This document shows positions 2,419 to 60,171 of a stretch of DNA of 64,000 nucleotides, one piece after another (the first letter of the stretch is position 1; each line of letters starts with the position of its first letter). The notes beneath the pieces are model-generated. The model was not told the DNA's origin and made no database searches. It saw nothing but the letters and a program-made list of their open reading frames with translations. Position numbers and translations under genes: made by a program. The DNA comes from a virus (Duplodnaviria; Heunggongvirae; Uroviricota; Caudoviricetes). Location: the IMG/VR virus record IMGVR_UViG_2778261571_000004; one strand, given 5' to 3'.

Positions 2419-3117
2419 TCATGCTGGAATCATATCTAATTGAAAAGATTCCATTATATATGTTGGTTCATCGATGTAGTCCTTCAGCCTATTGTCAAAT
2501 GACTCAAGCGGATTGTGTGGCGGATGATACCAGTCCGAGTATTCATTTAAAAAATGACCCATTATCAGTTCGATACCCACCTTTACTCCTGCAACTCCGA
2601 ACCATGCATTGTGCGTTAGTTGCTGGGCGTCTGTATCCAGTACGCGAATGCCATCAACAAGCTTTATTAGATTCCTGTGGTTTTCGTGTACTGTAACCTC
2701 TCCGCTGGTTAAGTCTATTTCAGCGAGAAAATATGGTCTTTTGCTTCCGTCGGACTTTTTGAAATGACAGTCATAAGCGACAGCAAACCACGCTTTACTA
2801 AAGTCTTTGTTGGCGTAAGTGGTACACATGCAACTAGGATAATCATCAATGTTAAACCAATCAGGAAGCGGATCATCTTTAGACGAGCCAGCAAAATCAT
2901 CAGCTAGTTTGTAGTTAATGTCTGGGTTGTACTTGCTGACAAAATCATCCACATCCTCTACATCCTCAACACCTTTCCAAACTTTACATTTCTCCGACCA
3001 AAAGAATCTCGCAATATCCGAAATGACTGGGAAACGTTTTTCAATTGAATTTATCAACTCTGCATGTTCTTTAAGAGATTTACGCTTGTTGATAAGCTTC
3101 TGAAGATGCGTACTCAT
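2419..3117 (-). CDS. hypothetical protein
   Basis: 232-aa ORF, GAGGA SD upstream of ATG. Confidence 0.55.
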   Translation of the reverse strand: MSTHLQKLINKRKSLKEHAELINSIEKRFPVISDIARFFWSEKCKVWKGVEDVEDVDDFVSKYNPDINYKLADDFAGSSKDDPLPDWFNIDDYPSCMCTTYANKDFSKAWFAVAYDCHFKKSDGSKRPYFLAEIDLTSGEVTVHENHRNLIKLVDGIRVLDTDAQQLTHNAWFGVAGVKVGIELIMGHFLNEYSDWYHPPHNPLESFDNRLKDYIDEPTYIMESFQLDMIPA

Positions 3118-3400
3118 TTTTAATTCCTCGTTTGTTTTCGATGTGATAATTATCGCTGAATGAAATAGGCTAAAAAGAAGATTTATAAGGCTACTATCTG
3201 GAAGTAAGGCAAAGTGTTGTCATTTAAGGCCACCAATGCTGATGGCCTTAATAATTATCGCCCGATTACGCTAAGGATCTTTTCCTCAACTGATTTGTTG
3301 TTGCGACTAAACTGCCTTGCGTATCTGATGACAGAAGAGGCGTTTCGCTTTCTGACCATCTCGGCTCTTTCCTTCAGGCGTTTCTTGAAATCGCCCATAT

Positions 3401-3775
3401 TTACCACCAGGCGCAAAACGTCAGTCTGTTATTGTGAAAGTCGTGGTTCTTAATCAGGTCTTCCACAAGCTCTTTCAACTCCCCCACATCATGCCAGTAA
3501 CCTTCATCGTACTCCTGACTGCCGAAGAAAAAACCTTCCCGGGTAGGCAAGTACTCTTCGCAATTACTTTCGTTTATGTGCATCAAATGAGCCTTCAGAA
3601 AACAAATGTCATTCATCGTTAATTCTAAAAGCTCACAATTTTCGACTTCACCTACGTTGCGCTCCATCCACCCAACGAGCGCATTGAACTTACGGAAGTA
3701 AGCAACCCGCTTTCTGGATGCCTCATTATTCAGATCGTTTTTTGGCTGCGTCTCGATGTAGATATCAAGTCCCAT
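3401..3775 (-). CDS. hypothetical protein (start moved to Met15 of track ORF 3401..3817)
   Basis: AAGGAAA SD precedes Met15; the track start is a GTG without SD. Confidence 0.45.
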   Translation of the reverse strand: MGLDIYIETQPKNDLNNEASRKRVAYFRKFNALVGWMERNVGEVENCELLELTMNDICFLKAHLMHINESNCEEYLPTREGFFFGSQEYDEGYWHDVGELKELVEDLIKNHDFHNNRLTFCAWW

Positions 3776-3858
3776 GATGGTTTCCTTATTAAGTTGCTTC
3801 AGTGAAATCATTTTCACAAATCAGATAAGGCAGAAAACAAATTGTTATCGGGCATAAT

Positions 3859-3883
3859 AAAATGGCGCGGTTTGCGCGCCATT
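3859..3883 (-). terminator. hairpin terminator (aaatggcgcg..cgcgccattt) after gene 3893..4288, approximate
   Basis: 10-bp GC-rich stem followed by T-rich run in minus sense. Confidence 0.5.
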
Positions 3884-3892
3884 TAAAGAGGA

Positions 3893-4288
3893 TTAAGCGA
3901 ATACGCTTTCAGGGATTAAGGTGTCGGCAGGAATGCCAGAGGTAATGCGCAGACCGTACTGGCCAATCCAGGTGGTGCTGGTGTTCAGGCTGGAGGCGAA
4001 TACGGTGTTAACCATATTCATCATGGTTTCAAACACCTCTTCATCAACCTGGCGGAAGTAGTTCTCGATTTTCAGCAGCAGCGGGTCAGTTGCATCGAGA
4101 ATGGACTGGTATTGAGTCGCGTACTCGCCGTCGGAGTCATCACCTTTACGCACGATCGTACTGGCCTGTACTTCGGCGCCAGTTTCGGTGTTGTACGTAA
4201 CAACGGTGATTTTTGCCACATTCTTACCTTCGGCGGTTTCAGAGGCATAGTAAACATCAACTGTCAGTTTTTCGCGTTTAATGGTCAT
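3893..4288 (-). CDS. hypothetical protein (start at Met23 of track ORF 3893..4354)
   Basis: GGAGAG SD before Met23; motif-2 palindrome and an upstream-gene terminator precede it. Confidence 0.5.
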   Translation of the reverse strand: MTIKREKLTVDVYYASETAEGKNVAKITVVTYNTETGAEVQASTIVRKGDDSDGEYATQYQSILDATDPLLLKIENYFRQVDEEVFETMMNMVNTVFASSLNTSTTWIGQYGLRITSGIPADTLIPESVFA

Positions 4289-4325
4289 TTCACTCTCCGT
4301 AGTGTATTGGTTATTTTTATATTCT

Positions 4326-4344
4326 ATGATCGTAAGTATGTACT
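4326..4344 (-). promoter_or_regulatory. motif-2 palindrome (GTAAGTA-tg-TACTTAC), approximate
   Basis: Inverted repeat between a terminator and the SD of gene 3893..4288. Confidence 0.4.
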
Positions 4345-4414
4345 TACAATACAAAAAAGCCCCGTAAGGATGGCGGGGCTGTCGTACGGTCGACTAATTA
4401 CCACTTGCACATTA

Positions 4415-4726
4415 TCAGGCTATTGCCATCACTGATGCTCTCTGAATCTCTTGCTGGGCCACGCGGTTAACTTCCATCAAAGCCAGTTCGAGCTGATGTT
4501 CCGGCCACATTCTTTGAAATGCCACCCAGCCTTTTCCACGCTGGCGACGAACATTCATTACATAACGAGTAAAGGTGTTTTTATCGAAAGACACCGCTGT
4601 TTCACGGAACAGACGAATAGAGGTTCCATTGGCAACGATGTCCAGCAAAGTTAATTGAGCAACCAGCGCAGGCTTCTCTTTTCTCTTCTGGTCTTTGTCC
4701 AGACCAAGAACCAATGATTTTTTCAT
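4415..4726 (-). CDS. hypothetical protein (start at Met17 of track ORF)
   Basis: GGAG SD before Met17; motif-1 palindrome about 12 nt upstream. Confidence 0.45.
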   Translation of the reverse strand: MKKSLVLGLDKDQKRKEKPALVAQLTLLDIVANGTSIRLFRETAVSFDKNTFTRYVMNVRRQRGKGWVAFQRMWPEHQLELALMEVNRVAQQEIQRASVMAIA

Positions 4727-14646: not shown

Positions 14647-15890
<1,244 letters not shown>

Positions 15891-16011
15891 TTGACCATTG
15901 CTACCGACCGGGCCACCTTAACACCCGGTCTGTATATAGACTATTTTTTACGCGCCGGAAGTCACTCTTAACGCCCTTCCGGCCCTTGCCAGGCGGCACA
16001 AAGGATGCGCT

Positions 16012-19000
16012 ATGACTCATCAAACACACACCATTGCTGAATCCAATAACTTTATCGTCCTTGATAAGTACATCAAAGCTGAGCAAACAAGCGACAGCTA
16101 CCAGAGCGAATCGGACCTGGAACGTGAACTGATTCAGGACCTGCGGAATCAGGGTTATGAATTTATTTCCGTAAAATCACAGTCGGCAATGCTGTCCAAT
16201 GTTCGGGAACAGCTTCAGAGCCTCAATGGTGTGATGTTTAATGACAGCGAGTGGCGGCGCTTCACGGAGCAGTATCTGGACAATCCCAGCGATGGTATTC
16301 TGGATAAGACCCGTAAAATCCATATCGACTATATCTGCGACTTTATTTTTGACGACGGGCGTCTTGAGAACATCTATCTGATCGATAAAAAGAATCTCAT
16401 GCGCAACAAAGTGCAGATTATCCAGCAGTTTGAACAGGCAGGTTCTCATGCTAACCGTTATGACGTCACGATCCTGGTTAATGGCTTGCCTCTGGTGCAA
16501 ATCGAACTGAAAAAGCGCGGCGTGGCGATTCGTGAGGCTTTCAACCAGATACATCGTTACAGTAAAGAGAGTTTTAACAGCGAAAACTCCCTGTTTAAGT
16601 ATCTGCAACTGTTTGTCATTTCTAACGGCACCGATACCCGTTATTTTGCCAACACAACAAAGCGCGATAAAAACAGTTTTGATTTCACCATGAACTGGGC
16701 GAAATCAGACAACACGCTGATTAAAGACCTCAAAGACTTTACCGCTACCTTTTTCCAGAAACATACTCTGCTGAATGTTCTGGTGAACTACAGCGTGTTT
16801 GACAGTAGTCAGACGCTACTGGTGATGCGACCGTACCAGATTGCCGCCACCGAGCGCATTCTGTGGAAAATTAAGAGCTCCTTTACAGCGAAGAACTGGT
16901 CAAAACCGGAAAGCGGTGGGTATATCTGGCACACTACCGGTTCTGGTAAAACCCTTACCAGCTTTAAAGCCGCGCGTCTGGCAACAGAGCTGGACTTTAT
17001 TGATAAAGTCTTCTTTGTGGTCGACAGAAAAGACCTCGATTACCAGACCATGAAGGAATATCAGCGTTTTTCGCCAGACAGCGTCAACGGCTCGGAAAAT
17101 ACCGCAGGCCTTAAACGAAATCTGGATAAGGACGATAACAAAATTATCGTCACTACTATTCAGAAACTCAATAACCTGATGAAAGCAGAAAGCGACCTGC
17201 CTGTATATAATCAGCAAGTGGTGTTCATATTTGATGAATGCCACCGCAGCCAGTTTGGAGAAGCGCAGAAAAACCTGAAGAAGAAATTCAAACGCTATTA
17301 TCAGTTTGGTTTTACCGGCACCCCTATTTTCCCGGAAAACGCCTTAGGCTCAGAAACAACCGCCAGCGTATTTGGTCGTGAATTGCATTCGTATGTAATT
17401 ACCGATGCGATTCGTGACGAAAAAGTGCTCAAATTCAAGGTGGACTACAACGATGTGCGGCCACAGTTTAAGTCTTTAGAGACAGAAACTGACGAGAAAA
17501 AACTAAGTGCGGCTGAAAATCAGCAGGCGTTTCTTCATCCCATGCGTATTCAGGAAATCACGCAATATATTCTGAATAATTTCCGCCAGAAAACTCACCG
17601 TACCTTCCCTGGCTCAAAAGGTTTTAATGCTATGTTGGCAGTGAGCAGCGTGGATGCCGCGAAAGCCTATTATGCGACGTTTAAACGGTTACAAGAAGAA
17701 GCCGCTAATAAATCGGCTACCTATAAACCGCTGCGTATTGCGACAATCTTCTCCTTTGCCGCTAATGAAGAACAAAATGCCATTGGTGAAATTTCCGATG
17801 AAACTTTTGATACCAGCGCAATGGACAGCAGTGCTAAAGAGTTTCTGGACGCTGCAATTCGTGAATATAACAGCCATTTTAAAACTAACTTTAGCACCGA
17901 CAGTAACGGTTTTCAGAACTACTATCGTGATTTAGCCCAGCGGGTTAAAAATCAGGATATCGATCTGTTAATTGTCGTTGGGATGTTTTTAACCGGCTTC
18001 GACGCTCCAACATTGAACACGCTATTCGTCGATAAAAACTTGCGTTTTCACGGCCTGATGCAGGCATTTTCCCGCACCAACCGTATTTATGATGCAACTA
18101 AAACCTTCGGTAATATCGTCACTTTCCGGGATCTGGAACGCTCAACCATCGATGCCATAACGCTGTTTGGTGACAAAAACACCAAAAATGTAGTGTTAGA
18201 AAAGAGTTATGCAGAGTATATGGAAGGCTTTACTGATGCTGCTACAGGTGAAGCTAAACGCGGCTTTATGGCAGTAGTTTCAGAACTGGAACAACGGTTC
18301 CCTGACCCTGCCAGTATTGAAAGTGAAAAAGAGAAGAAAGACTTCGTTAAACTGTTTGGCGAATACCTGCGTGCCGAGAACATCCTGCAAAACTATGATG
18401 AATTTGCCACGCTGAAAGCCCTGCAACAAATCGATCTTAGCGATCCTGTTGCGGTAGAAAAATTCAAAGAAGAACATTATGTGGATGATGAAAAGTTCGC
18501 TGAATTGCAAACGATTCGTCTCCCTGCTGAACGCAAGATTCAGGATTATCGTTCTGCCTATAACGATATTCGTGACTGGCAGCGCCGCGAGAAAGAAGCT
18601 GATAAAAAAGAAAAATCAACCACTGACTGGGATGACGTGGTTTTTGAGGTCGATTTGCTGAAGTCTCAGGAAATAAACCTGGATTATATCCTTGGACTGA
18701 TTTTCGAACACAACAGACAAAATAAAGGCAAGGGCGAAATGATCGAAGAGGTCAAACGCTTAATTCGTTCAAGCCTGGGGAACCGGGCGAAAGAGGGCCT
18801 GGTGGTCGATTTTATTCAGCAAACGAACCTGGATGATTTACCAGACAAAGCCAGCATCATTGACGCGTTCTTTACCTTTGCTCAACACGAACAGCTACGT
18901 GAAGCAGAAGCGTTGATTAAAGAAGAAAATCTCAATGAAGAGGCGGCGAAACGCTATATTCGCACGTCTTTAAAACGCGAATACGCCACCGAAAATGGCA

Positions 19001-40363: not shown

Positions 40364-40467
40364 GTATGCTGCCAGCGGTAATTGATAGTCTGTCAACGGT
40401 TCGCCGTATGCTGCCAACTGTTTTTGGTATGCTGCCAGCGGCAAATCAAGTATGCTGTCAGCGGTTG
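40364..40467. repeat. iterons upstream of rep (about 5 copies of GTATGCTGYCAGCGGT-like 16-mer), approximate
   Basis: Direct repeats read in sequence. Confidence 0.7.
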
Positions 40468-40485
40468 AATGACAAAGGTGTCCAC

Positions 40486-41580
40486 ATGTCCACAAAAAAT
40501 AAAAAAGGTAAAAATAACAAAGAAGTAGAAGATAATCTCGACAACTTTGAAGAAGGCTCCCTTGAATTGTACACAGGGGAACTTGTCCCTAATAGCAACA
40601 ATACAGTCCAACCAATTGCGTTGATGCGGCTGGGGTTGTTCGTGCCCACGCTCAAGGGTACAAAATACAGCAAGCGTAACAAGCCAAATGAGATTGATGC
40701 TTCAAAGGAGCTTGTTCAGCTCGAAGTAGCCCGTTCTGAAGGCTATTCCGATATCAAGATAACCGGTCCTCGTCTCGACATGGATCATGATTTCAAAACG
40801 TGGGTGGGCGTTGTGCGTTCGCTGGCAGAATACGGCGAACCTAACGGTCGTGTCGAGTTAAGCATCACGAAATTTGCGAAGTTTTGTGGCTATCCATCGT
40901 CACAGATCCGCAAAACACTCCGCGACCGGCTTACAAACAGTCTTTTGAAGATCATGCGTACAACTCTGTCTTTCCAGAGAACGTATGAAGAAAAGAACGT
41001 CGACGGCTCTAACAAGATCTCGCTTCTGATGGTGCACCTCATCAATAGCGTGGACTACAACGAGCAGAAAGATACGGTGGTGTTCTATGCAGAACCGAAG
41101 CTGGCCGAACTATATCGCTTTGACCATAAGGTTCTTTTGCAGTTAAAGGTTATCAATAAGCTACCACGCAAAGAAACAGCACAGGCTCTGTACACCTTCA
41201 TCGAAAGTCTTCCAACCAAGCCTGCGCCGGTATCGCTTGCTCGATTGCGTGCGCGACTCAATTTGAGTAGCAGGAATGTCAGCTCGCAGAATCAGACTAT
41301 ACGCAACGGCTTAAAAGCTCTCCAAGATTTGGGTTATCTCGAATACAGCGAGATTAAGCGTGGGCGGTCGATCTATATCCAGATTCACAGCCGCAATCCA
41401 AAACTCAAAGTCGCACCGCCAAAACCTGAAGACATCGAACCCAAAAAACCAGATGAGAAAGCCGGGGAAATTGATGCCAAACAGAACATTATCAATAAGA
41501 TAACCGAACTTTCGCAGAATTTGACGCCTGAAAATATCAAGATGATTGAGATCCTTTCCAATAGTCTCAAACTGCTTTGA
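40486..41580 (+). CDS. replication initiator protein (iteron-binding Rep)
   Basis: Gene flanked on both sides by iteron arrays; AAGGTG SD before Met41 of the track ORF; basic protein. Confidence 0.65.
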   Translation: MSTKNKKGKNNKEVEDNLDNFEEGSLELYTGELVPNSNNTVQPIALMRLGLFVPTLKGTKYSKRNKPNEIDASKELVQLEVARSEGYSDIKITGPRLDMDHDFKTWVGVVRSLAEYGEPNGRVELSITKFAKFCGYPSSQIRKTLRDRLTNSLLKIMRTTLSFQRTYEEKNVDGSNKISLLMVHLINSVDYNEQKDTVVFYAEPKLAELYRFDHKVLLQLKVINKLPRKETAQALYTFIESLPTKPAPVSLARLRARLNLSSRNVSSQNQTIRNGLKALQDLGYLEYSEIKRGRSIYIQIHSRNPKLKVAPPKPEDIEPKKPDEKAGEIDAKQNIINKITELSQNLTPENIKMIEILSNSLKLL

Positions 41581-42112
41581 TATGCTGTCAGCGGTGAAAT
41601 GTATGCTATCAGCGGCTATTTTTCTGAAAAGTATGCTGTGAACGGTTAAAGATATGCTACCAGCGGTATAGTGAGATAAACGTATGCTGTGAGCGGTAAA
41701 TCATCTATCACCACTCAATGCTCTTTTATACCTCCCCAGTGGTTACTAACCTCGAAGAGTGCATTCCATATAGGTTTGCGCTCACTAACATTCTATTCCC
41801 ATTGCGCTGATTACTTGTAGTGAAAGGTATTTATTGCCTGCTGCTCCCTGATAGAACGTATGCTGTCAGCGGTGTTTTATTGAGGAATTTTTGTTTGGAT
41901 ATGCTATCAGCGGTAATTAATGGCATATGTCAGACCTTCGTATGCTGCCAGCGGTAATTTTGTTCTGGTTATACCCATACCGGTACACATTATTCATGCA
42001 ATGTCTTAAGTATGCTGTCAGCGGTAAAAAATCGAGTAAAGTATGCTGTGAGCGGTGAGATAGACTCTCGATATGCTATCAGCGGCAGTTGATTGTGTAT
42101 GCTGTCAGCGGT
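41581..42112. repeat. iterons downstream of rep (about 13 copies in two clusters separated by an AT-rich segment), approximate
   Basis: tatgctgtcagcggt and variants at about 41581, 41601, 41631, 41652, 41682, 41858, 41899, 41940, 42010, 42040, 42071, 42097. Confidence 0.7.
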
Positions 42113-42159
42113 GACGACTATGAAATATGACTGCGGAACGTGCCGCAGTCAGTTTGCAT

Positions 42160-42372
42160 TTAGTGTATTTTCTTCAACAGACCCCAAAGTGTTCCGGCTT
42201 TTGTAGTCAGTTTTCCTGTTTCTGGATCGTACATACGCCATTCACGCCGCTGGTGGACGATATACCCATCTTCACGTTCCAGACGCTCAAGAATGCCAGG
42301 CTGCTTGAAACCCTTAGCACGCCAGTATCCGCTTGTTTTCTCGATTTCCAGACCTGCCAGTGTTAATGCCAT
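42160..42372 (-). CDS. small hypothetical protein (70 aa)
   Basis: Start overlaps stop of upstream gene (TAATG). Confidence 0.4.
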   Translation of the reverse strand: MALTLAGLEIEKTSGYWRAKGFKQPGILERLEREDGYIVHQRREWRMYDPETGKLTTKAGTLWGLLKKIH

Positions 42373-42707
42373 TATCCAACCTCCTTGCAGTCATCGAAAA
42401 GGTAGCTTTGCTGAGAAGCGTGAACGCCATAGAAGCCCTTGTATTTGTTGTATACGAAGTGGTCTTCTCCGACGCCGGTTAATTTGCCATTACGATTTGT
42501 GAGATATGGGGATGACAATACTCGATCGTCACGCACAACATAGAACTGGTCGCCGCTGTCTACGACCATCGCTCCATATGGTGCTTTTATGACGTCGGTA
42601 AGAGCGCCATTCTTAACGTCGGCTACAGACATTTCACACTGATAAACAGTGGTGTCGGCCACAACGATCGAGGAAAGGAACAACAGAGCGAATGGGATGG
42701 CCTTCAT
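42372..42707 (-). CDS. predicted secreted protein (signal peptide)
   Basis: N-terminus MKAIPFALLFLSSIVVA. Confidence 0.5.
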   Translation of the reverse strand: MKAIPFALLFLSSIVVADTTVYQCEMSVADVKNGALTDVIKAPYGAMVVDSGDQFYVVRDDRVLSSPYLTNRNGKLTGVGEDHFVYNKYKGFYGVHASQQSYLFDDCKEVG

Positions 42708-42883
42708 GCTGCCACCTCTTTGATTACATCAAATGCTGAATTAAATACGAGCACGATAGCCAAAGCGTTTATGACTACGTCGTTCACCGGGGAAAAGACT
42801 TTACGAATGACACCAGTGAAAATGCAGTCGATGACAAAAGCTATTGAAACGATGAGTAACAAGTATTCAATAAAAATCTTCAT
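42704..42883 (-). CDS. small membrane protein (about 59 aa), approximate
   Basis: Hydrophobic product; stop overlaps ATG of 42372..42707 (ATGA); not in ORF track. Confidence 0.35.
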   Translation of the reverse strand: MKIFIEYLLLIVSIAFVIDCIFTGVIRKVFSPVNDVVINALAIVLVFNSAFDVIKEVAA

Positions 42884-42922
42884 GATAGGTAGATACTAAC
42901 TTATATAAATTTTACTGTAAAC

Positions 42923-43198
42923 TCACTCAAAAGTGCTGATGCTTAAAATACGCTCAAGATGTTCGGCATCTTCATCACTGATTTGTTGAGTCTCTTCTAC
43001 GTACCAACAGTTGCCGTTATGCCAACAAACACCATCATCATCAACCATCACTGAATCAGCGTCATGACCTGTATATTCAACGAGAATACGCTGGATCAGC
43101 GCGTCAGTTTCTTCGTCGTTAAGGCCATCGGCTTTGACCATAAAAAGCGGAAACACGTCATAGACAGTGCTGGTAACGATTCGAACTAAAACTCTCAT
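42923..43198 (-). CDS. acidic hypothetical protein (91 aa)
   Basis: ORF with conserved AGGAAAAACAC-ATG context. Confidence 0.4.
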   Translation of the reverse strand: MRVLVRIVTSTVYDVFPLFMVKADGLNDEETDALIQRILVEYTGHDADSVMVDDDGVCWHNGNCWYVEETQQISDEDAEHLERILSISTFE

Positions 43199-43253
43199 GT
43201 GTTTTTCCTTTTGTGGTTAGTGTTTACTTATTTTGTTAGTTATGAATAGGCGA

Positions 43254-43679
43254 TCAATCTTCTTGTTTAGGGAAAAACTGTTCAATAACTCTGTCAACGG
43301 CTGTGTCTATATGGAGTAGATGCCACACAACCATATCTTTGCTTCCCATGCCTTGTGTGAATATCACGTCATACTTACGCCATGCGCAGTGGAACCAATA
43401 TGCTGAGTCATCAATTGGTAAATCCTCTCCCGCCTCTTTGAAGTATTTCAGCAGCATTGCCTGCTCTGCCGTTGGCGTTGGACCTATTTCCTGAGCGTAC
43501 ATACGGATGAATCGCTGCCAGTCTGTCTCGTCGGGGGTTGGATCTGGTGGGGTCATTTCTGCGATAGCGTTTCGTAGCTGATGCGCCCAATCAGGTTCAG
43601 GAAAGCCTTTTGCTACTTCATCATCAATAACATCCAGAGCCACGTTTGCGGCATCGTAGAGTTTCTTAATAGCTGCCAT
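43254..43679 (-). CDS. hypothetical protein (141 aa)
   Basis: Motif-1 palindrome upstream. Confidence 0.5.
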   Translation of the reverse strand: MAAIKKLYDAANVALDVIDDEVAKGFPEPDWAHQLRNAIAEMTPPDPTPDETDWQRFIRMYAQEIGPTPTAEQAMLLKYFKEAGEDLPIDDSAYWFHCAWRKYDVIFTQGMGSKDMVVWHLLHIDTAVDRVIEQFFPKQED

Positions 43680-43690
43680 GTTTTCTTATC

Positions 43691-43718
43691 CTTTTAAACA
43701 AATTGTTTTCTTAATAAG
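43691..43718 (-). promoter_or_regulatory. motif-1 palindrome (TTTTAAACAAATTGTTTTCTTAA), approximate
   Basis: Recurrent motif. Confidence 0.45.
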
Positions 43719-43758
43719 ATAATTGCGATAAAAAAGGCGTCCTGTGGACGCCTTGTGT

Positions 43759-46098
43759 TTACTCTTCTACTGACTCGGTGGGGGTATCTTTTGCTCTCCG
43801 GTCATCGATTGCCTGCAAAGCCGCAATGATTTCAGCCAGTGGCTTCTCCCGATACATCTCGACGATCTGCGATTTGGTGTATTTCTTGTCACCAATTTCA
43901 ACTCGCCCGCTGGCGTTCTTTGGCAGGTATCCTTCTTCCAGCATGTACTCGACGAGCGATTCGATAACGTCGAGGCCACGAGTAGGATCGAAGTAGAATT
44001 TCCAGGTGCATTTGCCATACGGTGGTGCAACTTTGTTTTTGATGCATTCTGCGCCTACGTCCTGGCCGATCTTCTCTTTACCATCCTTCATCACCGATGC
44101 ACCAAGACGGATACGTACAGAAGCGTAGAACTTCGGTGAATCTCCACCTGGCGACGTAGTAGGGTCGCCAAACATTACACCGATTTTTGTGCGAACCTGA
44201 TTCAAGAAGATGATGCAGGCGTTGTATTTGCGTGCCCACAAAGCCAGAGTAGGGAAGTTCGCACTCGTCGCACGAGCCAGTGCCGTATTGTCGTTCATGT
44301 TTAGCTGATCTTTGTCTTTGGCTGTGCCTTCAGCCATCTTTTCGAACTTCTCGGCTTTGGAGTTCGGAACCATAGACGCAAGAGAGTCAGCCACGATACA
44401 GATAGGTGCTGATTCGGGGATAAGCTCTTCATCACGAACCAATTTAAGTATTGTGCCGATCAACTCTACAGAGTCTTCGAAGGTATCTGGCTGCTTGTAT
44501 ACCCACTGACCGTCATCCTCATCTGCGTTCAGGCCATTGGCTACAGCCAGGCCAACGTCAAAACTGTTTTCATGATCGAGGAATACCGCCAGACCATCTT
44601 GTTTTTGAGCGGAGATCATCGCTGCTGTTGCAAGGAATGTGTTGTGGCTGATAATCCCGTTAGACCAGAAAGAGTGTGTTTCCGGCATCGCTACGTCGAA
44701 CGTTGGTGCTTCACCTTCCTCAATAGCCACGACTTCGTCGTAGAACAAGTTAGAGCCAATTACCGCTGCCAGTTGTGCAAACAGATGCTCGTTAAAACGA
44801 TTCTTTCTGCCAATGAAGGAGACATAGATTTCTCGCAGTTTGTCTATTCCGACACGATCGCCGCGGCCAATAACGTGGTCTACCAGAGCGTAGTCTTCAC
44901 GGGTGGTCTTGGTGAGCGACTCGTAGAGTGATTTCACTAAGCCGCTGATGTGCGGAACATAGCCTGAGTAAGTGCGGTCAAAACCAATGTCCCGTTTGGT
45001 TGCCACTGATAAACGTGCCGGAGATTCGAAACCAATCGTTGACAGAAAAAGGTCGTAATTAGAGCCACTGAATGACAGCCGGTAATATGTATTTTCATAA
45101 CCCGCGACGTGTTTTTCAGAGATAGTTGACGTAATCCCCAGATTCAGGAGCATGAGGCGAATTTGCTGTAGCAGCAGCCCACTCGCGCTCACAACCTCAA
45201 TGCAGCGACCATCATTGACGTGGCATTCCAGCTCAAAGTAGCCGCGAAGGAATGCAATTTGAGCCTCGCTATTGGCGCGACGCACACTCAACGGAACCTG
45301 CTTGCCAGCAGCTTTCTCATACTCCAGACCATATTCTTTAAAAAGCAGCGAACGCACCTCTTTGCTAAACAGCACATGGTCTTCCGAGCCGTTATGTTTT
45401 CTCGTAACTGGCATCTTGTCTGATACCAGCGAAATGAGGCGGTAGTACTCATCCTTGATGAAAGGATCTGTGTTAGAAAAATTCACTGAATTTTCAGAGG
45501 CCACGTATCCGTCAGCAATTAAATAGCCCATCAGTTTTGCGATATTGGCATCCAGGTGCTGATCGCCGAATTGATGTGTGCCAACCATTGAAGGAATCGT
45601 GTCGCCTACACTGATTTTTTCAGCATGTCGCCAGACGACATTACCTAAGTCGTCAACCACACGGATTGGGTGACGGAACGTAGCCTCGATATAACCGCCT
45701 GATGCCAGCTTAATACGCTTGAATTTGCGACGGTTGTTCCATGTCAGGTGTGAGGTCTTCTCTATCACGCCATTTTCATTGATGAGTCCAACGTTATGCT
45801 CTACATCGCGAGTAGTGCATGTCGCTTTGTACCCTTCAATCTCAAACAACTCTTTCACTGTTACCATTCCACGCTCCGTCAGCAGCATGGTGTCTGCGGT
45901 AACACATTTCCCCGCGCTTGGTGGCCCGAATACTTCTACGATACGACCACATGGGAAACCGCCATCGTAACGACCGGAAATAGCTTTGTTTAACGGAGGA
46001 AAGCCTGTGTCAATCCAATGAGTTACTTTCTGAATTTCGTCGTTGCTACCGATTTTCTTTTTCAGAGCAAGTGCCAGTGCGGATTTTCCTTTTGCCAT
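43759..46098 (-). CDS. RecA-family recombinase interrupted by an in-frame intein
   Basis: N-extein ...GRIVEVFGPPSAGK (Walker A) then Cys; C-extein resumes TFLATAAM...; exteins total 357 aa, RecA-sized. Confidence 0.8.
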   Translation of the reverse strand: MAKGKSALALALKKKIGSNDEIQKVTHWIDTGFPPLNKAISGRYDGGFPCGRIVEVFGPPSAGKCVTADTMLLTERGMVTVKELFEIEGYKATCTTRDVEHNVGLINENGVIEKTSHLTWNNRRKFKRIKLASGGYIEATFRHPIRVVDDLGNVVWRHAEKISVGDTIPSMVGTHQFGDQHLDANIAKLMGYLIADGYVASENSVNFSNTDPFIKDEYYRLISLVSDKMPVTRKHNGSEDHVLFSKEVRSLLFKEYGLEYEKAAGKQVPLSVRRANSEAQIAFLRGYFELECHVNDGRCIEVVSASGLLLQQIRLMLLNLGITSTISEKHVAGYENTYYRLSFSGSNYDLFLSTIGFESPARLSVATKRDIGFDRTYSGYVPHISGLVKSLYESLTKTTREDYALVDHVIGRGDRVGIDKLREIYVSFIGRKNRFNEHLFAQLAAVIGSNLFYDEVVAIEEGEAPTFDVAMPETHSFWSNGIISHNTFLATAAMISAQKQDGLAVFLDHENSFDVGLAVANGLNADEDDGQWVYKQPDTFEDSVELIGTILKLVRDEELIPESAPICIVADSLASMVPNSKAEKFEKMAEGTAKDKDQLNMNDNTALARATSANFPTLALWARKYNACIIFLNQVRTKIGVMFGDPTTSPGGDSPKFYASVRIRLGASVMKDGKEKIGQDVGAECIKNKVAPPYGKCTWKFYFDPTRGLDVIESLVEYMLEEGYLPKNASGRVEIGDKKYTKSQIVEMYREKPLAEIIAALQAIDDRRAKDTPTESVEE
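44641..45906 (-). mobile_element. intein (about 422 aa) with LAGLIDADG homing-endonuclease domain inside the recA-like P-loop
   Basis: Starts CVTADTMLL, ends ...ISHN followed by Thr+1; LMGYLIADGYV and FLRGYFELECHV LAGLIDADG-type motifs; coordinates from residue counting. Confidence 0.7.
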
Positions 46099-49203: not shown

Positions 49204-49428
49204 ATGAAGCAACATCCGAATAAGCATATTCAAGCAGCCATTGACTATGCATTAAGTAAAGGCTGGATCTGGGTAGCAGCTGGTGGTGCTGCACATTGTT
49301 TTTGCAGACTGCGATGCGGTAATCCAGAAGGTGAACACAAAACTCACCAAATGAGCGTATGGTCGACTCCGGGTAATCCCGAAAACCATGCCAAACAGAT
49401 CAAACGAATGGTTGATCGTTGTAAATGA
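49204..49428 (+). CDS. small protein, HicA-like toxin candidate (tentative)
   Basis: 74 aa; GW.WV..GG.AH pattern resembling YcfA/HicA; plus-strand in a minus-strand block. Confidence 0.35.
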   Translation: MKQHPNKHIQAAIDYALSKGWIWVAAGGAAHCFCRLRCGNPEGEHKTHQMSVWSTPGNPENHAKQIKRMVDRCK

Positions 49429-49488
49429 TTTCAAGGCGGCATTAGCCGCCTTTTGCAGAAACTGTCCAACTATCTTCAAAGGAAAACT

Positions 49489-50052
49489 ATGGCGCTTTAT
49501 AACTTCACTCTGACGCTCTCAGGCGTATCGTATGAGACGGAAGGACTGGAAGACGCGCTGTACCAAAACGGCTGTGACGATGCGCTAATTTGCGCATATG
49601 GAAACTCCGTCTATGTAGAATTTGACCGCGAAGCACAATCACTTGATGCAGCTATCGCATCTGCGGTCGACAATATTGAATCAGCCGGTATCGGTGCAAT
49701 TGTTGAATCCGTCGACTCGGCTCTTGTGGGCTTAAGCGATATCGCGGAACTGACAGACCTGTCTCGCCAGGCAGTGGCGTTGCTCAAAGACGGTAAGCGC
49801 GGAAGCGGCGACTTCCCTTGCCCTGTACAACGCATAAAAGGCCAGTCTCCTCTCTGGGATTGGGCTGATGTGGCTGAATGGCTCATGAATAACGGACGAC
49901 TTAAAGAGGGCGATCAAATTGTCCAAAATGCCCGAACTTTGAGTAAATGGAATCTGGCGCTTCGAAACAGCGTCTCGAAAGATTTCAACGAAATAGAGCA
50001 AATTGCGGAGAAACTGATTAAACGCCGCAAAGATATTGCGAAATGCGCATAA
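49489..50052 (+). CDS. HTH-containing protein, candidate antitoxin/regulator partner (start at Met13 of track ORF)
   Basis: AAGGAAA SD; C-terminal LSDIAELTDLSRQAVALL helix-turn-helix-like segment. Confidence 0.4.
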   Translation: MALYNFTLTLSGVSYETEGLEDALYQNGCDDALICAYGNSVYVEFDREAQSLDAAIASAVDNIESAGIGAIVESVDSALVGLSDIAELTDLSRQAVALLKDGKRGSGDFPCPVQRIKGQSPLWDWADVAEWLMNNGRLKEGDQIVQNARTLSKWNLALRNSVSKDFNEIEQIAEKLIKRRKDIAKCA

Positions 50053-50381
50053 TGATGCCCGCCAATTGGCGGGCATCTGTTCTCTGTAAAGGTGTCTGGC
50101 ATCGTCTGGTTCGTTAACGTTTACTAAACCAATGGTGACAAAAATTAGTTATCTTTGAAAAATAAAGGTTGCATGAAAAGAAGGGGTATGCGTTAATAGC
50201 ATCGTTGGTTTGCAAGACAGACCTTATGTAAGCAGTTTTAGTAAAGCAGTCTCAGTTCAGTGTTATCTTCTGATTTCCCTTCTTCGTGAGTCTCCTCCTT
50301 AAGTGCCTAAGTAAGTCCCAATCTATACAGATCAAATTCTCGCCGCACTATGTGGCTCACAAAATTAAGAAGGTAATATCT

Positions 50382-50597
50382 ATGTCTAATAAAATGACTG
50401 GTTTAGTAAAATGGTTTAACTCTGATAAAGGCTTTGGCTTTATTTCTCCTGCTGATGGCAGTAAAGATGTTTTTGTACATTTTTCGGCAATTCAGAGTAA
50501 TAATTTCCGCACTTTGGAAGAAGGCCAGCAGGTCGAATTCTCTATCGAGAATGGTGCTAAAGGCCCAGCAGCAGCAAATGTCGTTGCTCTAAGCTGA
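50382..50597 (+). CDS. cold-shock protein, CspA family
   Basis: [20 protein letters not shown]...[11 protein letters not shown]1/RNP2 motifs; long 5' leader. Confidence 0.85.
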
Positions 50598-60075: not shown

Positions 60076-60171
60076 ATGACAATCACCGAGTTACGCCGAT
60101 GCACTGTATAAGTAAACAGTATATTAGGCATAGATTCTTATAGGATCAAGAGTAAAAGTAACTCATTTTCA

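What the first reader, a model, noticed from the sequence alone, without database searches (positions are those of the whole stretch)
42160..42883. Three translationally coupled small genes: membrane peptide, secreted protein, 70-aa protein
The stop/start overlaps (ATGA, TAATG) link a 59-aa hydrophobic protein, a 111-aa signal-peptide protein and a 70-aa soluble protein, directly beside the replicon. Compact operons of this kind often encode superinfection-exclusion, immunity or toxin-related functions; none of the three matches a family I recognise.
Basis: inference. Interest (0 to 1): 0.4.

Follow-up and report, generated by a model that had tools for sequence, protein, structure and literature searches.

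The report
Conserved three-gene envelope operon beside replicon
Three tiny overlapping genes (a membrane peptide, a secreted protein and a P1 Cra-like protein) form a real, conserved operon of unknown function next to the replication origin of an SSU5-type phage-plasmid; in a near-identical element its RNA is at background in broth but rises strongly inside macrophages.

Summary
On the minus strand, A (59 aa, two hydrophobic segments), B (111 aa, cleavable signal peptide, no lipobox, two conserved cysteines) and C (70 aa, basic) overlap by ATGA and TAATG. They lie between a conserved sigma-70-like promoter and a hairpin that abuts the iteron array of the replicon.

The window is an SSU5-like phage-plasmid of E. 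coli. The trio is close to core in that family, pMT1 of Yersinia pestis included:
- 787 PLSDB plasmids match the region.
- 210 of 5,426 complete E. coli genomes carry it, always on a plasmid.
- All three ORFs are intact in 79 of 80 IMG/VR loci.

All three genes are under purifying selection. B belongs to a very small family of secreted phage proteins with no known function or solved fold. A has no relatives outside this plasmid family.

Public RNA-seq of the near-identical Cyrano element shows the trio at floor level in LB and 36- to 78-fold higher in macrophages, independently of the upstream genes.

The function is untested. My best guess (about 0.35) is a conditionally expressed, envelope-acting accessory module for exclusion or protection. 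No toxin, immunity or defence family matched. Interest is moderate.

The parts
42893..42921 (-). Sigma-70-like promoter of the trio, TTTACA-17 nt-TAGTAT, in the 39-nt gap after the upstream 91-aa gene. The -10 hexamer ends 9 nt before A's ATG, so A's mRNA would be leaderless or have a leader of about 3 nt.
   Evidence: Consensus scan. The block ATTTACAG..TATAAGTTAGTAT(C/T)TACCTAT(C/T)ATG is conserved in E. coli, SSU5, Enterobacter, pMT1, Cronobacter and Klebsiella. In Cyrano RNA-seq, expression steps up about 12-fold between the upstream gene and A in macrophages. The transcription start site itself is inferred, not mapped.
42704..42883 (-). Gene A: 59-aa hydrophobic peptide with two predicted membrane-spanning segments (about residues 4-25 and 36-52). 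They are joined by the most conserved stretch, G-x-I-R-K-x-L-x-P-V-N. There is no Shine-Dalgarno sequence.
   Evidence: ORF; hydropathy; phrog_2535, E 1.4e-31, unknown function; conserved and intact in 79/80 loci; pN well below pS. Topology is inferred from the positive-inside rule.
42372..42707 (-). Gene B: 111-aa exported protein. The signal peptide is residues 1-17 (42657-42707), with cleavage predicted at VVA|DT. The mature protein is about 94 aa and all-beta, with Cys24 invariant and Cys107 nearly invariant. B's start overlaps A's stop (ATGA), and GAGGTGG lies at 42718-42712.
   Evidence: ORF; alignments; phrog_2077, E 8.5e-64; AlphaFold model with pLDDT 83.5, ten strands; no Pfam, PDB or PADLOC match.
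42160..42372 (-). Gene C: 70-aa basic soluble protein of the P1 Cra family, with core motif E-I-E-K-x-S-G-Y-W-R-A-K-G-F. C's start overlaps B's stop (TAATG), and AAGGAGG lies at 42386-42380.
   Evidence: tblastn to P1 Cra: 43.5% identity over residues 8-69, E 1e-4. phrog_804, E 6.5e-34. Annotated 'P1 Cra' / 'Cre-associated' in Cyrano and SSU5. Alignment with P1 Cra. dN/dS 0.03-0.05 against the distant relatives.
42128..42151 (-). 9-bp G+C-rich hairpin starting 9 nt after C's stop. It is the likely terminator or 3' stabiliser of the operon and separates it from the iterons.
   Evidence: Terminator-like scan. A stable hairpin is predicted at the same place in SSU5, Enterobacter, pMT1, Cronobacter and two divergent lineages although the sequences differ; no strong one was seen in Klebsiella. 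The T-tract is weak, so the function is inferred.
41581..42112 (+). Context: array of 12 iterons (TATGCTGTCAGCGGT) downstream of the Rep3-type repA, towards which the operon is transcribed.
   Evidence: Pattern search: 15 matches in the window against 0.13 expected by chance. RepA Pfam Rep3_N.

Best explanation
SHOWN. The trio is a self-contained, conserved accessory operon of an SSU5-like phage-plasmid. It runs promoter -> A (small inner-membrane peptide) -> B (Sec-exported, non-lipidated, all-beta protein with a conserved cysteine pair) -> C (basic cytoplasmic Cra-family protein) -> hairpin. All three genes are under purifying selection. In the near-identical element Cyrano the RNAs of the three genes rise together and independently of the upstream genes. 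They are at background in LB stationary phase, low in DMEM, and 36- to 78-fold higher inside THP-1 macrophages.

INFERRED.
- A is made in small amounts from a leaderless or near-leaderless mRNA.
- B and C are made in larger amounts from strong ribosome-binding sites.
- A and B work together at the inner membrane/periplasm. A would tether or position B, the role a lipid anchor would play in the structurally similar phage proteins annotated as lipoproteins.
- Together A and B alter or shield an envelope component. That would make the trio a conditionally expressed exclusion or protection module, blocking incoming phage DNA or envelope-attacking agents.
- C, shared with P1 where it precedes cre, is a small regulatory or nucleic-acid-binding partner.

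The confidence given refers to this functional reading. That the trio is a genuine, co-transcribed, conditionally expressed operon I hold at about 0.9.
For: Anatomy and coupling.

Conservation:
- 787 plasmid records match the region.
- 210 of 5,426 E. coli genomes carry it, all on plasmids.
- 79 of 80 IMG/VR loci have all three ORFs intact.
- The same overlaps and promoter block occur in six genera.
- Purifying selection: dN/dS about 0.2-0.3 (A), 0.1 (B) and 0.03-0.05 (C) against the distant relatives.

Expression (PMC9928086, S1 Table). CYRAN_60/61/62, as log2(fpkm+5):
- LB stationary: 2.3 / 2.5 / 3.7.
- Macrophage 1 h: 7.0 / 6.2 / 7.2.
- Macrophage 6 h: 8.6 / 8.4 / 8.9.
- The upstream genes CYRAN_59 and CYRAN_58 reach only 5.0 and 4.1 at 6 h.

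Envelope location:
- Hydropathy of A.
- Signal peptide and cysteine pair of B, conserved down to 24% identity.
- B's model matches predicted structures of phage proteins, several annotated 'lipoprotein' (Erwinia phages Huxley, Kwan, Joad; Pectobacterium phage Possum). The eight best hits have TM-score 0.61-0.74 and E 7e-7 to 3e-5; Joad is weaker (TM 0.56, E 1e-3).

Module logic:
- Divergent SSU5-like lineages, where B is only 28-32% identical, still keep small membrane peptide -> B-like -> C-like -> Rep3.
- The unrelated Pantoea phage PdC23 and its relatives carry a small soluble protein -> B-like -> one-segment membrane peptide, again with TAATG overlaps, at the head of an operon divergent from a Cro-like regulator.
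- A and B are found fused in nature: in-frame in pHCM2, and as one full-length fusion in Pseudocitrobacter.
- B diversifies faster than C: 39 against 17 distinct sequences in 80 loci. This fits a protein at an interface with something external.
Against: - No experiment addresses function.
- No similarity to any annotated exclusion, defence, immunity or toxin family.
- The operon is at background in LB-grown lysogens and is not in the source paper's list of lysogeny-expressed morons. That is odd for a gene meant to protect the lysogen at all times.
- Macrophage induction may reflect general stress derepression. Toxin-antitoxin genes, an integrase and some structural genes of Cyrano also rise.
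- B-like genes also occur alone, without membrane or soluble partners, in other mobile elements.
- The small partners in PdC23 are not demonstrably homologous to A or C.
- Only one of five AlphaFold models of B was confident.
- The constant position beside the iterons is not explained by an envelope role.
Confidence: 0.35

Rival explanations
1. Replicon-linked regulatory or maintenance function. C (Cra family) binds DNA or a replication/recombination protein, or stress-induced transcription of the operon runs towards the downstream iteron array. Either way, plasmid copy number or maintenance would be tuned under stress. A and B would be passengers or membrane-linked helpers.
For: - The trio sits immediately next to the 12-iteron array in every lineage examined, including very divergent ones.
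- Among phage records, Cra-family genes were found only in two unrelated phage-plasmid families, P1-like and SSU5-like. In P1, cra lies between lox and cre, a plasmid-maintenance locus.
- C is by far the most conserved of the three.
- The hairpin between C and the iterons has only a weak T-tract.
Against: - A and B are envelope proteins by sequence.
- B-like genes occur in phages and islands without a plasmid replicon.
- pHCM2 persists in S. Typhi with A and B fused and half of each deleted, so A and B at least are dispensable for maintenance.
- No DNA-binding fold or family could be assigned to C.
- repA RNA hardly changes when the trio is induced.
Confidence: 0.15
2. Membrane-toxin, abortive or lysis-control module. 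A is a small membrane-damaging peptide (holin- or Hok-like) kept nearly silent, and B and/or C modulate it.
For: - A is a 59-aa peptide with two hydrophobic segments and no ribosome-binding site, a set-up that keeps translation low.
- The operon is silent in normal growth and rises together with the kacAT and hicAB toxin-antitoxin genes of the same element in macrophages.
Against: - No hit in PADLOC or in toxin or holin families.
- A lacks the charged C-terminal tail usual in holins (own knowledge) and is not next to an endolysin; its neighbours are the 91-aa gene and B. In Cyrano the lysis cassette is elsewhere, at CYRAN_22-25.
- Divergent lineages give A' an ordinary ribosome-binding site.
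- The partnership with an exported beta protein is not typical of known small-toxin systems.
Confidence: 0.12
3. B is a periplasmic inhibitor of lysozyme of the MliC/PliC type, giving protection inside phagocytes.
For: - Weak Foldseek hit to Pseudomonas MliC: probability 0.89, TM-score 0.36-0.40.
- Similar size, an N-terminal Y-Q-C-(D/E) motif and a Cys near the C-terminus as in E. coli MliC.
- Induction in macrophages.
Against: - Profile-profile comparison of the B family with MliC sequences gives probability 0.25%.
- Pfam MliC is not hit by any of 14 family members even at E <= 10.
- The MliC motifs SxSGAxY and TKG(D/E)EA (seen in the three MliC sequences) are absent from B, and so is a lipobox.
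- TM-scores are below 0.5.
Confidence: 0.04
4. The ORFs are chance or decaying reading frames without function.
For: They are small, have no Pfam family, and A is missing from several RefSeq annotations.
Against: - Purifying selection on all three.
- 79 of 80 loci intact.
- Conserved overlaps and ribosome-binding sites.
- PHROG families with E 1e-31 to 1e-64.
- Regulated transcription.
Confidence: 0.01

Closest known systems
Cra ('cre-associated' protein) of phage P1/P7 (phrog_804)
   Same: C aligns with P1 Cra over nearly its whole length: 43.5% identity, with shared motif L/I-E-x-E-K-x-x-G-Y-W-R-A-K-G-F and a hydrophobic C-terminal helix. The size is similar (70 against 73 aa). Both are carried by phage-plasmids of Enterobacteriaceae, next to a plasmid-maintenance locus.
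   Different: In P1, cra stands alone, immediately upstream of cre and co-oriented with it. Here C is the last gene of a three-gene operon beside the iterons, with no recombinase gene adjacent; in Cyrano the integrase is about 17 kb away. Cra itself has no known function: the P1 record calls it a 'putative cre associated function'.
The pdc_050-049-048 cassette of Pantoea phage PdC23 and related IMG/VR contigs
   Same: It has a B-family exported protein (31% identical to B, with the same signal peptide, cysteine pair and S-P motif), flanked by a small soluble protein and a small membrane peptide, with TAATG overlaps at both junctions.
   Different: The gene order is permuted: soluble -> B-like -> membrane. 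The membrane peptide has one segment, not two. The soluble protein is not demonstrably related to Cra (hhalign probability 0.2-1%). The host element is a 45-kb phage without a plasmid replicon, and the cassette lies next to the Cro-like regulator.
Small phage-encoded envelope proteins that exclude superinfecting phages (T4 Imm and Sp, HK97 gp15, T5 Llp, Cor lipoproteins; recalled from the literature, not tested here)
   Same: These are small membrane, periplasmic or lipoproteins encoded by compact accessory genes of phages. B's predicted fold resembles phage proteins annotated as lipoproteins.
   Different: There is no sequence or profile similarity to any of them; the PHROG hits are 'unknown function' families. 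The trio is not expressed in LB-grown lysogens. It includes a cytoplasmic Cra-like third component.
MliC/PliC periplasmic lysozyme inhibitors
   Same: Small exported beta proteins with an N-terminal and a C-terminal cysteine, and a weak structural hit.
   Different: Sequence profiles do not match. The inhibitory motifs and the lipobox are absent. TM-scores are below 0.5.

Membership tests
P1 Cra family (phrog_804), for C | Significant sequence similarity to P1 Cra over most of the length | tested here: met
   tblastn: 43.5% identity over residues 8-69, E 1e-4. phrog_804 HMM: E 6.5e-34, covering 1-70 of 70.
P1 Cra family (phrog_804), for C | Conserved core motif (E-K-x-x-G-Y-W-R-A/S-K-G-F) and invariant Trp45, Leu65 and Leu66 | tested here: met
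   Alignments A6 and A7, which include P1 Cra and two divergent SSU5-like lineages.
P1 Cra family (phrog_804), for C | Genomic association with cre/lox (the origin of the name) | tested here: not met
   The neighbours are gene B and the iteron array. In P1, cra directly precedes cre. This is context, not a criterion of homology.
Sec-exported soluble periplasmic protein, for B | N-terminal positive residue, hydrophobic core and small residues at -3/-1 of the cleavage site | tested here: met
   MK-AIPFALLFLSSIVV-A|DT. An N-terminal signal-like segment is present in all 14 family members aligned, and the close homologues keep Ala at -1. This was judged by inspection; no dedicated predictor was available.
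Bacterial lipoprotein, for B | Lipobox [LVI][ASTVI][GAS]C at the end of the signal peptide | tested here: not met
   The first Cys is residue 24, in V-Y-Q-C, seven residues after the predicted cleavage site.
MliC/PliC lysozyme inhibitors (PF09864), for B | Match to the family profile | tested here: not met
   No Pfam hit for B or for any of 14 relatives at E <= 10. hhalign against E. coli, Pseudomonas and Brucella MliC gives probability 0.25%.
MliC/PliC lysozyme inhibitors (PF09864), for B | Same fold | tested here: inconclusive
   Foldseek hit to 3f6z_B: probability 0.89, but TM-score 0.36-0.40 and rmsd 10 A.
Holin (class II), for A | Two membrane segments, a charged C-terminal tail, and a gene next to an endolysin | tested here: not met
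   There are two hydrophobic segments. The C-terminus is only D-V-I-K-E-V-A-A, and the neighbours are the 91-aa gene and B. There is no holin family hit.
Known anti-phage defence systems (PADLOC-DB 2.0) | Profile match of any component | tested here: not met
   No hits for A, B, C or the two upstream genes at E <= 0.1.
Superinfection-exclusion function | Reduced infection by the same or related phages when the genes are expressed | not testable with these tools
   Needs plating, adsorption and injection assays.
SSU5-like phage-plasmid backbone gene set | Presence and synteny across the family (DUF7238 gene - 91-aa gene - A - B - C - iterons - Rep3 repA) | tested here: met

The most novel reading that the evidence does not exclude
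The trio is a host-cell-induced survival module carried by phage-plasmids of intracellular or invasive enterobacteria (adherent-invasive E. coli, Y. pestis pMT1). Inside phagocytes the element switches on a periplasmic binder (B), held at the membrane by A, that shields the envelope from a host antimicrobial factor. The Cra-like C would couple this response to the adjacent replicon, for example to copy number. That would be a new kind of lysogenic conversion and would give Cra its first function.
Probability: 0.08. Interest if true: 0.7.

Novelty: new member of a known kind. Interest (0 to 1): 0.4.

Why it matters
SSU5-like phage-plasmids are common in clinical Enterobacteriaceae. This operon alone is present in about 4% of complete E. 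coli genomes and in hundreds of Klebsiella, Enterobacter, Salmonella and Yersinia plasmids, pMT1 included. The operon is close to a core gene set of the family, yet none of its three products has a known function.

Three leads are new as far as the tools show:
- The operon is a separate transcription unit that is at background in broth and strongly induced in macrophages.
- The exported protein B defines a very small family restricted to mobile elements of Enterobacterales: 27 hits among 1.84 billion representative proteins. In two unrelated phage groups it is coupled to a small membrane peptide and a small soluble protein.
- The last gene links the operon to the uncharacterised Cra of P1, the classic phage-plasmid.

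If the operon proves to act on the envelope or on plasmid copy number under host stress, it would be a useful handle on how phage-plasmids behave during infection. If it proves to be a plain exclusion cassette, it is ordinary.

Tried and rejected
- **Family searches.** Pfam, NCBIfam and PADLOC gave nothing for A, B and C. PHROGs gave only 'unknown function' families.
- **PDB by sequence.** B-family and C-family profiles gave nothing significant. A bL36-like stretch in C has E 0.25 and was dismissed.
- **PDB by fold.** No match for B (best E 0.03, TM-score <= 0.42) or for C (model pLDDT 66; best E 0.67).
- **MliC hypothesis for B.** It was raised by the weak fold hit and the Y-Q-C / C-terminal Cys pattern. 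It was rejected by hhalign (probability 0.25%) and by the absence of Pfam hits in 14 family members.
- **PdC23 pdc_050 as a Cra homologue.** It was suggested by the shared ...LLKK(V/I)H end. It was rejected by two profile-profile comparisons.
- **Two long proteins hit by the B profile (P0097, P0101).** They are repetitive sequences with scattered spurious Pfam hits, and I ignored them.
- **YPMT1.66c.** This pMT1 gene is needed for survival of Y. pestis in macrophages (PMC3968184). I checked it as a possible identity for the trio and excluded it. It is described as a putative DNA-binding protein or helicase, and it is absent, like ymt, from the Bronze Age LNBA- genomes. In pMT1 the trio lies next to repA.
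- **LexA control.** There is no perfect CTGT-N8-ACAG box near the promoter; the nearest is at 60104.
- **Failed or unproductive steps.** A scan of genome contigs with the full B-family alignment failed because the alignment was too diverse. The P1 genome paper could not be read. A literature search on Cra found nothing useful. A heteroresistance preprint concerns another phage-plasmid family.
Full report
**What the window is**

The region 41500-43700 is 98.6-99.7% identical to Escherichia phages CMS-2020a, PhiR41_1 and Cyrano, and 75% identical to Salmonella phage SSU5. It matches 425 PLSDB plasmids of Escherichia, Enterobacter, Yersinia, Salmonella and others, almost all non-mobilisable and about 110 kb. 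The window is therefore part of an SSU5-like phage-plasmid.

In Cyrano, SSU5 and PhiR41_1 the three ORFs are annotated as two hypothetical proteins plus a 'P1 Cra protein' / 'putative Cre-associated protein'. They lie between a Rep3-type repA and a run of early genes ending in recA.

**The observation**

The sequence shows the ATGA and TAATG overlaps. GAGGTGG lies 7 nt before B's ATG and AAGGAGG 7 nt before C's ATG. Nothing resembling a ribosome-binding site precedes A.

- **A** has two hydrophobic segments.
- **B** has a typical signal peptide ending V-V-A|D-T and no lipobox.
- **C** is basic and not hydrophobic.

Fifteen copies of TATGCTGTCAGCGGT flank repA (0.13 expected by chance). Twelve of them lie between repA and C's stop, and the last ends 48 nt from that stop.

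**Are they genes?**

Yes, on four grounds.

- PHROG profiles match full length with E 1e-31 (A), 8.5e-64 (B) and 6.5e-34 (C).
- The region is found in 787 plasmid records and in 210 of 5,426 complete E. coli genomes, always on a plasmid.
- In E. coli, SSU5, Enterobacter, pMT1 of Y. pestis, Cronobacter and Klebsiella, the three ORFs keep their lengths, overlaps and ribosome-binding sites. Of 80 IMG/VR loci fetched through the C motif, 79 have all three ORFs intact.
- Non-synonymous divergence is far below synonymous divergence. For window against SSU5, pN/pS is 0.154/0.856 for A, 0.174/0.704 for B and 0.037/0.610 for C. Where dS is not saturated, dN/dS against the distant relatives is about 0.2-0.3, 0.1 and 0.03-0.05.

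**A separate, regulated transcription unit**

The 39-nt gap upstream of A holds TTTACA-17-TAGTAT. The block ATTTACAG...TATAAGTTAGTAT(C/T)TACCTAT(C/T)ATG is conserved across six genera while the flanks diverge. The -10 hexamer ends 9 nt before the ATG, so A would be translated from a leaderless or roughly 3-nt-leader mRNA. This is inference; no start site has been mapped. Three divergent lineages carry an insertion here that supplies an ordinary GGAG/GAGG site. That fits a transcription start near this point.

After C's stop a stable hairpin is predicted in the window and in six of the eight relatives compared, although the sequences differ. Klebsiella shows no strong one, and the CP102 fold is not a simple hairpin.

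Public strand-specific RNA-seq of E. coli LF82 gives direct support. LF82's plasmid Cyrano encodes an identical B, and an A and a C that each differ from the window at one residue. The values for CYRAN_60/61/62, from PMC9928086 S1 Table (data of GSE154648), are below. Each value is the mean of the two replicates, in log2(fpkm+5).

| Condition | A (CYRAN_60) | B (CYRAN_61) | C (CYRAN_62) |
|---|---|---|---|
| LB stationary (floor is 2.32) | 2.3 | 2.5 | 3.7 |
| DMEM 1 h | 4.3 | 4.7 | 5.4 |
| DMEM 6 h | 3.3 | 3.1 | 6.3 |
| THP-1 macrophages 1 h | 7.0 | 6.2 | 7.2 |
| THP-1 macrophages 6 h | 8.6 | 8.4 | 8.9 |

That is a 36- to 78-fold rise over LB on this scale. The two genes just upstream reach only 5.0 and 4.1 at 6 h.

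The trio is among the most strongly macrophage-induced genes of the element, together with the kacAT and hicAB toxin-antitoxin genes, CYRAN_46 and the integrase. repA hardly moves. The authors list the genes expressed in LB lysogens ('morons'); the trio is not among them, and they do not discuss it. No perfect LexA box lies near the promoter. The regulator is unknown.

**Gene C**

tblastn finds C-like genes in only two groups of phages. One is the SSU5-like group (83-100% identity). The other is P1, P7 and relatives, where the hit is Cra (43.5% identity over residues 8-69, E 1e-4). The alignment shows a shared core E-(I/L)-E-K-x-x-G-Y-W-R-(A/S)-K-G-F, an invariant Trp45 and a hydrophobic C-terminal helix.

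In P1, cra lies between lox and cre and is co-oriented with cre. The record calls it only a 'putative cre associated function'. The AlphaFold model of C is mediocre (pLDDT 66; beta strands plus a C-terminal helix), and neither fold nor profile searches of the PDB give a match. So C is a member of an uncharacterised family. Its only contextual clue is that both host families are phage-plasmids and that both copies sit next to maintenance loci.

**Gene B**

The word-indexed search found only SSU5-like relatives. An exhaustive HMMER search of 1.84 billion representative proteins with a B profile found just 27 hits at E <= 0.001. Twelve of them are full-length proteins of 112-155 aa that are 24-57% identical to B. 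All have an N-terminal signal-like segment. Cys24, Phe55 and Ser66-Pro67 are invariant and Cys107 nearly so. None has a Pfam domain.

The best AlphaFold model is confident (pLDDT 83.5, pTM 0.71, ten beta strands), though the other four models are not. It has no counterpart in the PDB. It does match predicted structures of phage proteins (11 hits at E <= 0.001), several of them annotated as lipoproteins (Erwinia phages Huxley, Kwan and Joad; Pectobacterium phage Possum). The eight best hits have TM-scores of 0.61-0.74.

A weak hit to the lysozyme inhibitor MliC, together with the Y-Q-C and C-terminal Cys pattern, prompted a direct test. Profile-profile comparison with E. coli, Pseudomonas and Brucella MliC gives probability 0.25%. 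The MliC motifs seen in those three sequences are absent from B. I reject that assignment.

**Where B-like genes live**

1. **Divergent SSU5-like plasmids.** These are Enterobacter sp. CP102 and two metagenomic contigs. B is only 28-32% identical, yet the order small membrane peptide (45-50 aa) -> B' -> C' (70 aa) -> Rep3 is kept. In CP102 the peptide gene is not annotated, and B' is annotated with a false 34-residue N-terminal extension.
2. **Pantoea phage PdC23 and four related IMG/VR contigs.** The order is a 76-81-aa soluble protein -> B-like -> a 39-46-aa one-segment membrane peptide. In PdC23 both junctions are TAATG, and the cassette is the first unit divergent from a Cro-like regulator. 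The soluble protein is not detectably related to Cra.
3. **B-like alone.** It follows an Arc/KilA-N pair in one phage contig, follows a primase in another, and lies in an integrase-bearing island of Pantoea next to a Tlde1-domain gene.

So B is the portable core. In two unrelated phage groups it is tightly coupled to a tiny membrane peptide and a small soluble protein. Natural A-B fusions exist. pHCM2 of S. Typhi has an in-frame deletion joining A's first segment to the last 67 residues of B, and its C has lost three residues. One Pseudocitrobacter sequence is a full-length fusion.

**Interpretation**

The following are shown:
- a conserved, selected, separately transcribed, condition-dependent operon;
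- products that are, by sequence, a membrane peptide, an exported disulfide-type beta protein and a basic Cra-family protein.

The following is inferred: A and B act together at the inner membrane/periplasm. Three observations point that way: their coupling, their fusion in nature, and the lipid anchors annotated on structurally similar phage proteins, which B lacks. On this reading they modify or shield an envelope component, and C regulates or links the system to DNA.

I put about 0.35 on this envelope exclusion/protection reading. The main rival (0.15) takes the constant position beside the iterons and the P1 lox-cre parallel at face value and makes the operon, or at least C, a modulator of plasmid maintenance or copy number. 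A membrane-toxin or lysis-control role (0.12) fits the near-silent, leaderless-looking A and the co-induction with toxin-antitoxin genes, but it has no family support. The remaining probability is simply unknown.

**What it is not**

It is not a housekeeping lipoprotein locus, not a known defence system and not a holin-endolysin pair. It is also not YPMT1.66c, the pMT1 gene reported to be needed for macrophage survival of Y. pestis. That gene is described as a putative DNA-binding protein or helicase, and it is absent, like ymt, from the Bronze Age LNBA- genomes. The trio lies next to repA in pMT1.

**Novelty and score**

The sequences are already in hundreds of records as hypothetical proteins, and C is already labelled Cra-like in two of them. 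Four points appear to be new:
- the operon definition;
- its induction in macrophages, which sits unremarked in a supplementary table;
- the very narrow B family;
- the recurrence of B with a membrane peptide and a small soluble protein in an unrelated phage.

As a kind of thing, a small phage accessory operon for envelope proteins, it is familiar. I class it as a new member of a known kind and score interest at 0.4.

Noticed in passing
window 43759-46098 (-): The recA-like gene encodes 779 aa because it carries an intein with a LAGLIDADG homing-endonuclease domain (Pfam RecA, Intein_splicing, LAGLIDADG_3). SSU5 and pMT1 have an intein-free gene of 1,077 bp (about 358 aa); Cyrano has the long form.
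   Followed up: partly
window 43680-43758: Cyrano, PhiR41_1, SSU5 and pMT1 have an SPFH/stomatin-like gene plus a small membrane-protein gene between the DUF7238 gene and recA. This window has only 79 nt with a terminator-like hairpin (43734-43754) at that place. I did not check whether the pair lies elsewhere in the window.
   Followed up: no
window 40365-40465 and 40366-41580 (+): The mechanical 404-aa repA ORF starts inside three upstream iterons. Relatives annotate 351-364 aa (Cyrano 351, SSU5 354, PhiR41_1 364), so the true start is probably further downstream.
   Followed up: no
L012 (S. Typhi pHCM2, NZ_CP029857.1) 779-1287: In pHCM2, A and B are fused in frame into one 101-aa ORF by a deletion between the similar N-G-A-M and Y-G-A-M codons. 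C has lost three residues (LERLER -> LER). The fused protein is seen on at least 1,000 contigs (the counter's cap). This may be decay of the operon in a host-restricted pathogen.
   Followed up: partly
L005 (pCP102) 3457-3606; L010 (Cronobacter) about 777-956; L011 (Klebsiella) about 780-959: Gene A is missing from the listed annotation of several records. In the CP102-type lineage B' is annotated with a false 34-residue N-terminal extension (155 aa) that overlaps the unannotated peptide gene. The PLSDB gene tables are incomplete, so some of this may be a listing gap.
   Followed up: partly
window 49204-50052 (+); L020 (pMT1) 15792-16679: A HicA/HicB-like pair lies about 7 kb from the trio. 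The Cyrano genes annotated HicB and HicA (CYRAN_50/51) are among the most macrophage-induced genes of that element. At the syntenic place pMT1 has a gene of the same length as CYRAN_50 (564 bp) annotated 'DNA-binding protein', which may be YPMT1.66c, the gene reported as needed for Y. pestis survival in macrophages (PMC3968184). Neither the correspondence between these genes nor the identity with YPMT1.66c was verified.
   Followed up: partly
window 50286-50597 (+): A CspA-like cold-shock protein gene (core [17 protein letters not shown]...) sits between the hicAB-like pair and the DNA polymerase III alpha gene.
   Followed up: no
L013 (Pantoea sp. CS_6 island) 2676-4711: A distant B homologue lies in an integrase-bearing island. 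It follows a Tlde1-domain (L,D-transpeptidase-type effector) gene and a 104-aa membrane-anchored protein, and it is followed by another 117-aa protein with a signal peptide. This may be a periplasmic effector/immunity neighbourhood.
   Followed up: no
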